Shown one piece after another: positions 52,268-53,126 of a stretch of 64,000 bases of DNA; the first letter of the stretch is position 1, and every line of letters starts with the position of its first letter. This DNA comes from Shigella phage SFPB. The notes under the pieces are model-generated. The model ran no database searches and was not told the DNA's origin. It was given only the letters and a program-made list of their open reading frames with translations. The DNA lies in sequence record OQ031072; one strand, given 5' to 3'. The position numbers and the translations under genes are program-made.

Positions 52268-52337
52268 ACAGAAGGCCAATTACAGCAAACAAATTTTTCA
52301 ATTTCGCGCATAGAAATCCAAAAAAAGATTTGGTCTG
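52268..52337 (+). ncRNA. conserved hairpin element copy 1
   Basis: CAGAAGGCC...TACAGCAAACA...TGGTCTGG; one of four paralogous elements. Confidence 0.3.
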
Positions 52338-52349
52338 GTCATTAAGAAT

Positions 52350-52426
52350 TGCGGGTATAGAGAAAGGGCGTCTCACATGTCTCATTAGCATGGTATCGGT
52401 AGGTTCGACTCCTACACCCGCCTCCA
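52350..52426 (+). tRNA. tRNA-Met/Ile2 (anticodon CAT)
   Basis: Anticodon stem CATGT/GCATG, loop CTCATTA; T-arm GTAGGTTCGACTCCTAC; CCA. Confidence 0.55.
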
Positions 52427-52432
52427 AATTTA

Positions 52433-52497
52433 CAGAAGACCGTTTACAGCAAACACTTAAAATTTTTTATCGGAAAAAATAAAAAGATACGGTCTGG
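52433..52497 (+). ncRNA. conserved hairpin element copy 2
   Basis: CAGAAGACCGT...TACAGCAAACA...ACGGTCTGG. Confidence 0.3.
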
Positions 52498-52509
52498 TAA
52501 TACTAACAT

Positions 52510-52586
52510 GGTTAGGAAGCACATAAGGCATGTGCGGTCGGCTGTTAACCGAATGGTACAGGGTTCGAATCCCTGACTAACCGCCA
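52510..52586 (+). tRNA. tRNA-Asn (anticodon GTT)
   Basis: Loop CTGTTAA; T-arm CAGGGTTCGAATCCCTG; G73; CCA. Confidence 0.6.
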
Positions 52587-52655
52587 AGATTTGGGAGAGA
52601 AGCGATTGCTCACCGATTTGTAAGGTGCAAGTCCTTAGCCTGAATAGAATAAAAT

Positions 52656-52743
52656 GCGTCGTTATCCCGTAGATGGAAGCGGTGGTGACTGTAAATCACT
52701 TGTCATTATGACTCGGTAGGTTCGACTCCTTCACGGCGCACCA
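52656..52743 (+). tRNA. tRNA-Tyr (anticodon GTA), long variable arm
   Basis: Loop CTGTAAA; variable arm GTCA..TGAC; A73; CCA. Confidence 0.6.
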
Positions 52744-52749
52744 AATAAA

Positions 52750-52826
52750 GGTTATGTAGTTTAACTGGATAAAATACCTCCCTGTCACGGAGGAAGATGA
52801 GGGTTCGATTCCCTTCGTAACCGCCA
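52750..52826 (+). tRNA. tRNA-Asp (anticodon GTC)
   Basis: Anticodon stem CCTCC/GGAGG, loop CTGTCAC; G73; CCA. Confidence 0.6.
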
Positions 52827-52859
52827 AATTATAATAAGTATTTCAAAATGATGTTTGAG

Positions 52860-52886
52860 AGGGCTTTTTAGCCCCTCCCTTAAAGA
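52860..52886 (+). terminator. hairpin + T-run within tRNA array
   Basis: GAGGGCT-TTTTA-GCCCCTC. Confidence 0.35.
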
Positions 52887-52912
52887 GTTCTTACGAGTAT
52901 TCTTTAAAGGAG

Positions 52913-52986
52913 CAGAAGACCAAATACAGCAAGCAATTTTAATATTTCAAGCCAATTTAATTTGAAAAATTTAAAACTTGGTCTGG
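52913..52986 (+). ncRNA. conserved hairpin element copy 3
   Basis: CAGAAGACCAA...TACAGCAAGCA...TTGGTCTGG. Confidence 0.3.
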
Positions 52987-53000
52987 TTCCAACAATTTTA

Positions 53001-53126
53001 CAGAAGACCGTTTACAGCAAACAATAAACAATCTATTTCTCTGGTAAAGAAAAGGCGAAGGTTCGATTCCTTCACACGTTACGGCGTGTTGGTGTAATGG
53101 AAGCACTTAAGATAAATACGGTCTGG
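53001..53126 (+). ncRNA. conserved hairpin element copy 4 with internal tRNA-like T-arm
   Basis: CAGAAGACCGT...TACAGCAAACA...GAAGGTTCGATTCCTTC + ACACG-TTACGG-CGTGT hairpin...ACGGTCTGG. Confidence 0.35.

What the first reader, a model, noticed from the sequence alone, without database searches (positions are those of the whole stretch)
52268..53126. Four paralogous hairpin elements interleaved with the first tRNAs
Seen: four elements share a 5' arm CAGAAG(A/G)CC(G/A), a loop motif TACAGCAA(A/G)CA, AT-rich interior and a complementary 3' arm (A/T)(C/T)GGTCTGG. Elements 3 and 4 are adjacent; element 4 carries a tRNA-like insert. They are not tRNAs (no acceptor/anticodon architecture). Inference: a family of small structured RNAs or processing/attenuation signals specific to this array.
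Basis: seen in the sequence. Interest (0 to 1): 0.55.

Follow-up and report, generated by a model that had tools for sequence, protein, structure and literature searches.

The report
Phage Y-RNA-like small RNA genes
The four hairpins are genes for small structured RNAs of a widespread phage family that I found in neither Rfam nor the searchable literature; the family always lies beside a Ro60-like RNA-binding protein gene, one copy carries a tRNA mimic, and its signature matches an orphan RNA class of social amoebae.

Summary
Four same-strand elements lie at 52266-52341, 52430-52500, 52910-52989 and 52998-53129. Each has AAG, a 7-bp closing stem, a single-stranded UACAGCAA motif, a variable AU-rich interior, the return strand and CUG.

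They are not specific to this tRNA array. The ORF directly upstream (50520-51935; Pfam DUF2828 + DUF7788) is predicted to fold like the Ro60/Rsr ring plus a vWA domain. Homologues occur in 704 phage records.

The same RNA signature flanks that gene in Listeria, Mycobacterium, Bacillus, Enterococcus, Campylobacter, Aeromonas and Fusobacterium phages and in 49 of 75 environmental contigs. There, 77 of 78 matches are on the gene's strand and 99% of stem cells pair, with abundant compensatory changes. A covariance model built only from those distant phages ranks three of this window's elements as its top three hits.

Element 4 carries a T arm, a closed acceptor hairpin and a D arm, which is the layout of bacterial YrlA Y RNAs.

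The best reading is that these are Y-RNA-like partner RNAs of a divergent Ro60-like protein, excised from the tRNA precursor. Binding and function are inferred, not shown. The signature also resembles Dictyostelium Class I RNAs (Rfam RF01414), below that family's threshold.

The parts
50520..51935 (+). Gene for a 471-aa Ro60-like protein (helical ring domain plus a vWA domain with a MIDAS motif). It is the proposed protein partner of the RNAs.
   Evidence: Pfam DUF7788 (8.5e-44) and DUF2828 (9.4e-27). PHROG 850 'RNA-binding protein', 4.2e-177. The AF2 model has pLDDT 86.4. Its 12 best Foldseek PDB hits are all Ro60/Rsr/TROVE over the full length, with E 2e-8 to 4e-6 and TM 0.5-0.63. D279, S281 and S283 are invariant in the family.
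51954..52073 (+). Two sigma-70-type promoter-like sites (51954-51982 TTGACA-17-TAATAT; 52044-52073 TTGACA-18-TATAGT with TG) ahead of the tRNA/small-RNA array.
   Evidence: Consensus scan, 10/12 and 11/12 matches. These are consensus matches only and transcription was not tested.
52266..52341 (+). Element 1 (short form). Outer helix 52266-52269/52338-52341; 7-bp stem 52273-52279/52330-52336 (contains one G-U pair); motif ACAGCAA 52282-52288; unpaired G 52337. It lies between tRNA-Glu and tRNA-Met.
   Evidence: Model R1, built from distant phages only, scores it 30.3 bits, E 5.8e-4.
52430..52500 (+). Element 2 (short form). Stem 52437-52443/52489-52495; motif 52446-52452; unpaired G 52496. It lies between tRNA-Met and tRNA-Asn.
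   Evidence: R1 scores it 47.0 bits, E 1.2e-7, the best hit in the window. Rfam Dicty_Class_I_RNA scores it 25.7 bits.
52910..52989 (+). Element 3 (short form). Stem 52917-52923/52978-52984; motif 52926-52932; unpaired G 52985.
   Evidence: R1 scores it 28.3 bits, E 1.6e-3.
52998..53129 (+). Element 4 (long form). It has the same closing stem (53005-53011/53118-53124) and motif (53014-53020), and encloses a permuted tRNA-like module: anticodon-arm-like hairpin 53036-53052, T arm 53057-53073, closed acceptor-like hairpin 53074-53089, D arm 53092-53106.
   Evidence: The MFE fold gives exactly these helices. RNAalifold on six long forms from three phage lineages predicts the same helices, and 13 of 26 pairs have compensatory changes. 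Per-sequence arms are listed. The Rfam tRNA model gives a partial match of 28.8 bits.

Best explanation
The four elements are genes for small non-coding RNAs: three of about 70 nt and one of about 130 nt. I propose they are the RNA partners of the Ro60-like ring protein encoded directly upstream, which would make this a phage version of the Ro60/Y-RNA ribonucleoprotein.

Inferred steps are as follows. The RNAs are transcribed with the tRNA array from the promoters at 51954 and 52044. They are freed by the nucleases that process the flanking tRNAs. The protein recognises the closing stem (AAG...CUG) together with the adjacent single-stranded UACAGCAA. The variable interior, or in element 4 a tRNA-shaped module with T arm, closed acceptor hairpin and D arm as in bacterial YrlA, serves to gate the protein or to tether it to other factors such as exoribonucleases or tRNA-handling enzymes. 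The particle would then act in RNA or tRNA surveillance, or in control of host RNA decay during infection.

Shown here: the RNA family and its structure, its tight same-strand linkage to the protein gene across distant phages, and the Ro60-like predicted fold. Inferred: expression, processing, binding and the biological role.
For: (1) Independent family membership. A covariance model built only from elements of Listeria, Mycobacterium, Aeromonas, Fusobacterium, Bacillus, Campylobacter and Enterococcus phages ranks E2, E1 and E3 as the top three hits of the whole window on both strands (47, 30.3 and 28.3 bits). The 5' part of E4 ranks fifth.

(2) Linkage to the protein gene.
- Homologues of the ORF occur in 704 phage records.
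- Elements lie on the gene's strand next to it in every lineage sampled except one jumbo phage.
- In 75 environmental loci (1.24 Mb) there are 78 model hits at E<=1. Of these, 77 are on the gene's strand, and 49 of 75 loci have a hit.
- 37 hits lie within 300 nt of the gene, a zone that is 3.9% of the flanking DNA.

(3) Structure. 99.2% of 511 stem cells pair, with 181 double-sided changes, and all 7 pairs covary. CAGCAA and the 3' unpaired G are invariant in all 78 hits. G-U pairs and the strand bias argue for RNA rather than DNA.

(4) The protein is Ro60-like by predicted fold. It is independently annotated as 'Ro-like RNA binding protein' in mycobacteriophages.

(5) The E4 module has the YrlA order: T arm, closed acceptor hairpin, D arm. 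U8, A14, G18G19 and the T loop UUCGAUU are present. The acceptor hairpin sequence is completely replaced between lineages while pairing is kept. The equivalent LeBron element hits Rfam YrlA at 39.8 bits, E 1.4e-7.

(6) Minimal 34-42-nt copies end 0-3 nt before the Shine-Dalgarno sequence of the protein gene in several environmental phages. This is the classic arrangement for autoregulation by an RNA-binding protein.

(7) In Listeria phage P100 the three copies follow a TTGACA-17-TATCAT promoter. In the related phage CKA15, the most highly transcribed regions lie within 2 kb upstream of the homologous gene, and the authors suggested they might be Y RNAs (PMC12282133).
Against: - There are no expression or binding data for this phage or for any Ounavirinae member.
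- Folding energies are unremarkable (z -0.9 to -2.0).
- The similarity to Ro60 exists only at the level of a predicted structure. Neither the sequence nor a family profile finds Ro60 in the PDB, and Pfam TROVE is not hit.
- The known Ro-binding motifs (GNCGAAN0-1G in YrlA, GGUCCGA in animal Y RNAs; PMC4201824) are absent.
- 26 of 75 environmental loci and one jumbo phage (L020) show no element within the DNA held.
- The CKA15 transcript peaks could not be mapped onto the elements exactly. One of those peaks is probably a ROOL RNA.
Confidence: 0.72

Rival explanations
1. The elements are only cis-acting operators. On this view the protein binds them within long transcripts to regulate translation or stability, for example of its own mRNA, and no stable small RNA is made.
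For: In several environmental phages a minimal copy abuts the Shine-Dalgarno sequence of the protein gene (L045, L032, L031, L103, L101). In Vibrio phage R10Z a copy overlaps the start codon. Many hits lie within 100 nt of the gene.
Against: - In this window the copies lie 330-1200 nt downstream of the gene's stop codon, behind two promoter-like sites, and are interleaved with tRNAs.
- There is no coding sequence next to them to regulate.
- Element 4 carries a whole tRNA-like module.
- P100 has a dedicated promoter in front of its three copies.

Both uses may coexist within the family.
Confidence: 0.1
2. The elements are processing, spacer or attenuation signals of the tRNA operon, such as RNase E or RNase III entry sites or transcription attenuators.
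For: They sit between tRNA genes here and in the Bacillus, Enterococcus, Aeromonas and Listeria phages. 16 of 78 environmental hits lie within 60 nt of a tRNA.
Against: - The family follows the Ro60-like gene, not tRNAs: only 36 of 75 loci contain any tRNA, whereas 49 contain the RNA.
- No T-run follows the stems, so they are not intrinsic terminators.
- An invariant 6-nt unpaired motif and an invariant terminal G across phyla are not expected of a nuclease entry site.
- Most tRNA junctions in this same array lack the element.
Confidence: 0.08
3. The elements are DNA-level repeats: recombination or homing sites, miniature mobile elements, or cruciforms.
For: They are imperfect inverted repeats present in several copies. 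HNH endonuclease-like ORFs lie in the same array (54168-54572 and 55303-55683).
Against: - 77 of 78 copies are on one strand relative to the gene.
- G-U pairs in the stems, such as in E1, would be A-C mismatches on the other strand.
- Compensatory changes preserve RNA pairing.
- The copies occupy orthologous positions across Ounavirinae rather than scattered sites.
Confidence: 0.03
4. The elements are decayed tRNA genes or tRNA fragments with no function of their own.
For: Element 4 scores 28.8 bits against the Rfam tRNA model, just under its threshold of 29. A tRNA-Tyr pseudogene lies nearby (52658-52738).
Against: - Elements 1-3 have no tRNA features at all.
- The tRNA-like parts of element 4 are in permuted order (T arm, closed acceptor hairpin, D arm). 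They are kept with compensatory changes in Bacillus, Enterococcus and Mycobacterium phages, which indicates selection.
Confidence: 0.03

Closest known systems
Bacterial and phage Y RNAs, YrlA/YrlB (Rfam RF02553), bound by Ro60/Rsr (Chen et al. 2014, PMC4201824; Thermus phage phiLo Ro60 with Yrl1/2, PMC12135203)
   Same: - Small RNAs encoded next to, and on the strand of, a Ro60-type ring protein gene.
- The 5' and 3' ends pair to close the molecule, with a conserved protein-binding region at that stem.
- Several paralogues occur per genome.
- One long form carries a tRNA-like domain in the order T arm, closed acceptor hairpin, D arm, and short forms lack it.
- The LeBron long form matches the tRNA-like part of the YrlA model.
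   Different: - The partner protein is the DUF2828/DUF7788 family, which Pfam TROVE and sequence searches do not connect to Ro60.
- The conserved motif is AAG-stem plus UACAGCAA, not GNCGAAN0-1G or GGUCCGA.
- No window element reaches E<=10 against YrlA or Y_RNA.
- The 2014 survey searched only genomes annotated with a TROVE domain.
- Here the RNAs are embedded in a tRNA array.
Dictyostelium Class I RNAs (Rfam RF01414; Kjellin et al. 2021, PMC7919456)
   Same: - Start AAG.
- A short closing stem whose first pair is an invariant G-C and whose sequence is otherwise free.
- The motif (CC)UUACAGCAA lies 2-3 nt after the 5' strand.
- The positions reported as near-invariant in amoebae (C6, C9, A10, A11) are invariant in the phage family.
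- AU-rich variable interior, end CUG(U), about 60 nt, and several clustered genes.
- The amoeba-only Rfam model hits 14 phage elements and nothing else in these loci, always on the right strand.
   Different: - Scores are 17.6-30.8 bits, below the family threshold of 41.5.
- The spacing from the G to the motif is one nucleotide shorter.
- There is no DUSE promoter.
- The long tRNA-like forms are unknown in amoebae.
- The known amoebal binding protein is the RRM protein Rnp1A/CIBP, not a Ro-like protein.
- The class was reported as absent outside Dictyostelia.
Abundant unannotated RNAs of Listeria phage CKA15 (PMC12282133)
   Same: These are highly transcribed regions within 2 kb upstream of the homologous gene (CKA15_055) and on the same strand, which the authors speculated might be Y RNAs. 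The related phages P100 and cka14 carry three elements of this family behind a strong promoter-like site directly upstream of that gene.
   Different: That paper defined no motif, structure or family. I could not map its coordinates exactly. One of its three regions is probably a ROOL RNA.

Membership tests
Y RNA / YrlA (RF02553) | Encoded near a Ro60 orthologue, on the same strand | tested here: inconclusive
   The elements lie 330-1190 nt downstream of the gene on the same strand. The protein, however, is Ro60-like only by predicted fold. It is not Ro60-like by the Pfam TROVE model or by sequence.
Y RNA / YrlA (RF02553) | 5' and 3' ends pair to form the closing stem | tested here: met
   A 7-bp stem plus a 4-bp outer helix is present in all four copies. 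Covariation across the family is shown.
Y RNA / YrlA (RF02553) | Ro-binding motif GNCGAAN0-1G (bacterial) or GGUCCGA (animal) near the 5' end | tested here: not met
   The sequences read CAGAAGRCC...; no CGAA or GGUCCGA is present. The motif definitions come from PMC4201824.
Y RNA / YrlA (RF02553) | At least one RNA per genome carries a tRNA-like domain (T arm, closed acceptor stem, D arm) | tested here: met
   Element 4, 53036-53106.
Y RNA / YrlA (RF02553) | Reaches Rfam's gathering score (69 bits) | tested here: not met
   No YrlA or Y_RNA match at E<=10 in the window region. The related LeBron element scores 39.8 bits.
Dictyostelium Class I RNA (RF01414) | Short closing stem joining the 5' and 3' ends, starting with a conserved G paired to the C of the 3' CUGU | tested here: met
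   The ends read AAG...CUG(G). The G-C pair occurs in 65 of 75 distinct family members, and the terminal G in 78 of 78.
Dictyostelium Class I RNA (RF01414) | Conserved 11-nt motif (consensus CCUUACAGCAA) next to the 5' strand of the stem | tested here: met
   E1, E2 and E4 have UUACAGCAA (9 of 11) and E3 has AUACAGCAA. The Rfam alignment is shown.
Dictyostelium Class I RNA (RF01414) | Reaches Rfam's gathering score (41.5 bits) | tested here: not met
   25.7, 20.5 and 17.6 bits for E2, E1 and E4, and no hit for E3. The best phage element anywhere scores 30.8 bits.
Dictyostelium Class I RNA (RF01414) | DUSE promoter element about 60 nt upstream; found in Dictyostelia | tested here: not met
   This is a bacteriophage (99.8% identical to Citrobacter phage BSwM KMM4), with bacterial-type promoter-like sites.
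tRNA (RF00005) | Cloverleaf with acceptor stem formed by the two ends, an anticodon arm, and a score at or above 29 bits | tested here: not met
   ARAGORN finds nothing at the four elements. E4 gives a partial 28.8-bit match that mis-assigns the stem. E1-E3 give no match.
Ro60/TROVE protein family (for the partner ORF) | Helical-repeat ring followed by a vWA domain with a MIDAS motif | tested here: met
   The AF2 model (pLDDT 86.4) aligns over its full length to Ro60/Rsr/phiLo Ro60. The MIDAS residues D279, S281 and S283 are invariant. This rests on a predicted structure only.
Ro60/TROVE protein family (for the partner ORF) | Matches the Pfam TROVE model or Ro60 by sequence | tested here: not met
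   Pfam gives only DUF2828 and DUF7788. phmmer and a family profile find no Ro60 in the PDB.

The most novel reading that the evidence does not exclude
The phage RNAs and the Class I RNAs of dictyostelid amoebae may be one RNA class: the dedicated ligands of DUF2828-type Ro60-like proteins. That protein family is also reported in giant viruses; one phage record annotates its homologue by a match to mimivirus L728. From my own recollection of the Pfam entry, it also occurs in eukaryotes.

If so, Class I RNAs, described as unique to Dictyostelia and of unknown mechanism, would be a second, previously unrecognised branch of the Y-RNA world shared by phages and eukaryotes. The uncharacterised pull-down protein DDB_G0281243 (preprint 10.1101/2020.04.05.026054) would then be a candidate Ro-like partner.
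Probability: 0.35. Interest if true: 0.92.

Novelty: new variant of a known kind. Interest (0 to 1): 0.78.

Why it matters
Ro60/Y-RNA particles are known from animals, some bacteria and a few phages, but only where the protein is recognisable as TROVE. If this reading is right, four things follow.

- A much larger group of phages carries a divergent Ro-like protein with its own RNA partners. Homologues occur in 704 of about 50,700 records, including Felix O1-like, T4-like Vibrio/Aeromonas, Campylobacter, Listeria P100-like, Staphylococcus, Enterococcus, Bacillus and cluster L mycobacteriophages. These RNAs use a different recognition motif but the same tRNA-mimic strategy.

- It gives a concrete identity to unannotated gaps in phage tRNA arrays, and to abundant unexplained phage transcripts such as those reported for Listeria phage CKA15.

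- It provides a defined RNA element (closing stem plus ACAGCAA) and a defined protein for direct binding and structural tests.

- It makes the long-open question of what Dictyostelium Class I RNAs do directly testable, by asking whether they bind a DUF2828 protein.

Tried and rejected
- **Known RNA families.** Rfam at gathering thresholds finds only tRNAs in the window. Nothing reaches threshold at the elements in any locus.
- **Promoter idea.** TTTACA in the motif could be a -35 box, but only E4 gives a weak 9/12 match (52997-53025), and the total number of promoter-like sites is no higher than in shuffles. Rejected.
- **Terminator idea.** No T-run follows the stems. Rejected.
- **K-turn reading of the AGA/G loop.** The tandem G-A pairs are absent, judged by inspection. 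Rejected.
- **Sequence link to Ro60.** phmmer and a 33-sequence profile against the PDB found nothing relevant. Only the fold comparison worked.
- **AlphaFold-database fold search.** This was meant to find eukaryotic, including Dictyostelium, homologues. The library was not available.
- **Identity of DDB_G0281243.** Only one paper mentions it, with no domain information. The original pull-down paper is not held. A search on UCP015417 was uninformative.
- **Which phages were covered in 2014.** The supplementary tables of Chen et al. 2014 are not held.
- **First alignments.** The MAFFT alignments of short elements (A2, A3) had ragged 3' ends and register shifts. I corrected the ends before building the model.
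- **Jumbo Salmonella phage PHA46.** No element was found within 5 kb of its homologue.
- **CKA15 transcript coordinates.** These could not be mapped. The accession I guessed was sister phage cka14.
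Full report
**What is there**

The window comes from a Felix O1-like myovirus (subfamily Ounavirinae). The region is 99.8% identical to Citrobacter phage BSwM KMM4 and 83-97% identical to about 250 Escherichia, Salmonella, Shigella and Citrobacter phages. Coordinates 52101-57863 hold 25 tRNA genes, all on the + strand.

CAGAAGRCCNNNTACAGCAARCA occurs four times against 0.02 expected. YGGTCTGGT occurs four times against 0.57 expected. All copies are on the + strand.

Each copy folds the same way:
- an outer 4-bp helix;
- an asymmetric internal loop, AGA on the 5' side and G on the 3' side;
- a 7-bp helix AGRCCNN/NNGGUCU;
- an unpaired UUACAGCAARCA;
- an AU-rich interior hairpin.

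The paralogues already differ by compensatory changes. The inner stem reads CCAA/UUGG in some copies and CCGU/ACGG in others. The outer helix reads UGAC/GUCA, UUAC/GUAA or GAGC/GUUC. Folding energies are not unusual (z -0.9 to -2.0), so the case for structure rests on comparison between sequences.

**Conservation in close relatives**

In 13 Ounavirinae loci the elements sit at the same positions between the same tRNAs. The 5' arm, the motif and the 3' arm are kept, while the interiors diverge.

Copy number varies from two to four by a strict pattern search, and the long element 4 was found wherever the region is covered. Phage SUSP2 shows a compensatory change in the outer helix of element 2 (UUGC/GCAA instead of UUAC/GUAA).

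The acceptor-like hairpin inside element 4 exists in three entirely different but fully paired versions: ACACG/CGUGU, ACUCG/CGAGU and ACCCUUC/GAAGGGU.

**The neighbouring gene**

The ORF at 50520-51935 ends 330 nt before element 1.
- It matches Pfam DUF7788 (8.5e-44) and DUF2828 (9.4e-27).
- It matches PHROG 850, 'RNA-binding protein'.
- An AlphaFold2 model built with 33 homologues has pLDDT 86.4.
- The 12 best Foldseek matches of that model in the PDB are all Ro60, bacterial Rsr or the Ro60 of Thermus phage phiLo. They align over the full length with E 2e-8 to 4e-6 and TM 0.5-0.63. Isolated vWA domains follow only at E above 1e-3.
- By sequence there is no link to Ro60.

Homologues occur in 704 phage records from many host phyla. 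In mycobacteriophages they are annotated 'Ro-like RNA binding protein'.

**The same RNA next to the same gene in unrelated phages**

Reading the flanks of distant homologues showed the motif ACAGCAA preceded by the 5' strand of a helix. The 3' strand of that helix lies 30-110 nt downstream and is followed by G. These copies are always on the gene's strand.

| Phage | Copies found |
|---|---|
| Listeria phage P100 | 3, directly upstream of gp165 and behind a TTGACA-17-TATCAT site |
| Campylobacter phage NCTC12673 | 2 |
| Mycobacterium phage LeBron | 3, directly downstream of gp53 |
| Aeromonas phage 4_4572 | 7 |
| Bacillus phage PJN02 | 5, interleaved with tRNAs |
| Enterococcus phage VRE9_2 | 4 |
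| Fusobacterium phage FNU3 | 1 |
| Vibrio phage R10Z | 1, overlapping the gene's start codon |

The stem sequences are all different. The shared frame is (A/U)(A/U)G, then 5-7 nt, then 0-3 nt of spacer, ACAGCAA, a variable interior, the return strand, C(U/A)G. The distance from the G to the motif is 8 nt in most lineages.

**An independent test of membership**

I built covariance model R1 from 16 short elements of these distant phages only, with no Ounavirinae sequence. In that seed all 101 stem cells pair and 44 show changes on both sides. The seed was chosen with a helix requirement, so its pairing percentage is partly by construction.

Searching the whole 64-kb window on both strands with R1 gave E2 (47.0 bits, E 1.2e-7), E1 (30.3 bits) and E3 (28.3 bits) as the three best hits. 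The 5' part of E4 came fifth.

**A broader test of linkage**

I fetched 75 environmental viral contigs encoding 38-46% identical homologues, with up to 10 kb on each side, and searched them with R1 (1.24 Mb, both strands).
- There were 78 hits at E<=1, and 77 are on the strand of the gene. The single opposite-strand hit is the weakest.
- 49 of the 75 loci have a hit.
- 37 hits lie within 300 nt of the gene, a zone that makes up 3.9% of the flanking DNA. 49 hits lie within 1 kb.
- Only 36 loci contain tRNA genes, so the RNA follows the protein gene rather than tRNAs.
- In the model-based alignment 99.2% of 511 stem cells pair and 181 cells show double-sided changes. All seven pairs covary. Sliding the partner column by one drops pairing to about 45%.
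- CAGCAA and the 3' unpaired G are invariant in all 78 hits.

**Element 4 is a tRNA mimic of the YrlA type**

Its interior reads, in order: an anticodon-arm-like hairpin (53036-53052), T arm GAAGG-UUCGAUU-CCUUC (53057-53073), a closed acceptor-like hairpin (53074-53089), U, and D arm GUGU-AAUGGAA-GCAC (53092-53106). The tRNA identity nucleotides U8, A14, R15, G18G19 and A21 are in place.

Long forms with the same order occur in Bacillus PJN02, Enterococcus VRE9_2 and Mycobacterium LeBron. Their T stems covary (GAAGG, GUGGG, CUAGG, GCGGG) and their acceptor hairpins are unrelated in sequence but paired. RNAalifold on six long forms predicts these helices, with compensatory changes in 13 of 26 pairs.

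The Rfam YrlA model has exactly this topology. It matches the tRNA-like part of the LeBron element (39.8 bits, E 1.4e-7) but not its stem or motif. Weaker YrlA matches sit beside short elements in two environmental contigs.

**How it most likely works**

The logic follows the Ro60/Y-RNA system (PMC4201824, PMC12135203). In that system a ring protein binds the closed end of a small RNA, and the rest of the RNA gates the ring or tethers it to partners such as PNPase.

I infer that the closing stem plus ACAGCAA is the binding site of the DUF2828 protein. One observation supports this beyond linkage. In several environmental phages a minimal 34-42-nt copy ends 0-3 nt before the Shine-Dalgarno sequence of the protein gene, as expected for translational autoregulation.

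In this window the four copies lie behind two strong promoter-like sites and between tRNAs. The likely route is co-transcription with the tRNAs and release by tRNA-processing nucleases.

Neighbouring RNA ligase and CCA-adding enzyme genes in some phages fit a role in RNA or tRNA surveillance or repair, but the function is not established. Published transcriptomics of Listeria phage CKA15 report very abundant RNAs within 2 kb upstream of the homologous gene, and also report the protein in virions.

**Comparison with known families**

The system works like YrlA/YrlB with Ro60, but it fails membership. The Ro-binding motif is absent, no element reaches the Rfam threshold, and the protein is not a sequence-recognisable TROVE protein.

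The only Rfam family that the short forms resemble is Dictyostelium Class I RNA. That hypothesis arose from the window and was then tested on other phages. The amoeba-only model hit 11 further elements at 23.1-30.8 bits, and hit nothing else in those loci or on the other strand.

The listed E-values of 0.089-8.3 include a factor of 4227 families. For this one pre-specified family they correspond to roughly 2e-5 to 2e-3 (my arithmetic). The published description of Class I RNAs lists a start AAG, a 6-bp stem of free sequence beginning with an invariant G paired to the C of CUGU, an 11-nt motif with near-invariant C6, C9, A10 and A11, a variable interior, and about 60 nt in length. It fits the phage family point by point.

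All scores remain below the 41.5-bit threshold, and the class was reported absent outside Dictyostelia. I therefore treat a real relationship as possible, not shown.

**Novelty**

Searches of the held literature found no description of this RNA family. DUF2828 appears in 5 unrelated papers. No paper combined Class I RNA with Ro60, TROVE or Y RNA terms, and the Ro-like phage searches returned nothing relevant. The only related statement is the CKA15 speculation.

I rate it a new variant of a known kind: Ro60-type protein plus Y-like RNAs, with a different protein subfamily and a different recognition motif.

Noticed in passing
L014 (Listeria phage P100) 3420-3971, + strand: This region matches ROOL RNA (RF03087) at 86 bits, E 8e-16, below the gathering score of 99.1. 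It lies behind a TTGACA-type promoter-like site between tRNA-Pro and gp166. It probably corresponds to the most highly transcribed, unexplained region reported for the related phage CKA15 (PMC12282133).
   Followed up: partly
window 52658-52738, + strand: A degenerate tRNA-Tyr(GUA) with a long variable arm. It scores 22.8 bits against the Rfam tRNA model and ARAGORN does not call it. Relatives annotate it as tRNA-Tyr or as a pseudo-tRNA.
   Followed up: no
window 54083-54150, + strand: A tRNA-like sequence scoring 32.6 bits against the Rfam tRNA model, above its threshold of 29. Both ARAGORN and the whole-window gathering scan missed it.
   Followed up: no
window 53529-53834, + strand: Weak overlapping matches to tmRNA models (tmRNA_permuted 29.9 bits, alpha_tmRNA 20.8, tmRNA 16.6) in the gap between tRNA-Ile and tRNA-Arg. 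A promoter-like site lies at 53603. This may be another structured RNA.
   Followed up: no
window 53128-53272: A 21-nt inverted repeat (86% complementary, arms 53128-53148 and 53252-53272) closes a 145-nt segment directly after element 4 and before tRNA-Lys. It is a candidate for a further structured RNA.
   Followed up: no
window 54168-54572 and 55303-55683, + strand: Two paralogous ORFs of 134 and 126 aa lie inside the tRNA array. Both end in CANCHRKVHAG, an HNH-like motif, and they share a 74-nt stretch at 78% identity. Relatives annotate an HNH endonuclease in this array.
   Followed up: no
window 36474-36537 (+) and 3356-3417 (+): Weak hits of model R1. The first scores 22.4 bits, E 0.032, has ACAGUAA in place of ACAGCAA, and overlaps the 3' end of a 90-aa ORF. 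The second scores 19.3 bits, E 0.16, and lies in an intergenic gap. They could be chance matches or extra degenerate copies.
   Followed up: partly
L019 (Aeromonas phage 4_4572) 2494-2632, + strand: A 117-nt tRNA-model match (49.2 bits) in which CUUACAGCAA and a hairpin are inserted in the anticodon region of an otherwise complete tRNA that ends in ACCA. This arrangement of the motif differs from element 4.
   Followed up: partly
L020 (Salmonella jumbo phage PHA46) and L019: RNA ligase and tRNA nucleotidyltransferase genes lie within a few kb of the Ro-like gene, on the same strand. This suggests an RNA-repair neighbourhood.
   Followed up: no
L066 8605-9054 and L087 8800-9042: In environmental phage contigs that carry the Ro-like gene, one has a full tmRNA gene (75.4 bits) and another a group I intron (59 bits), both above their gathering scores.
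   Followed up: no
window 52857-52880, with similar sites near 54858 and 57939: A GC-rich hairpin (GAGGGC-UUUUUA-GCCCCUC) recurs three times in the array without a clear T-run (repeat family D15).
   Followed up: no
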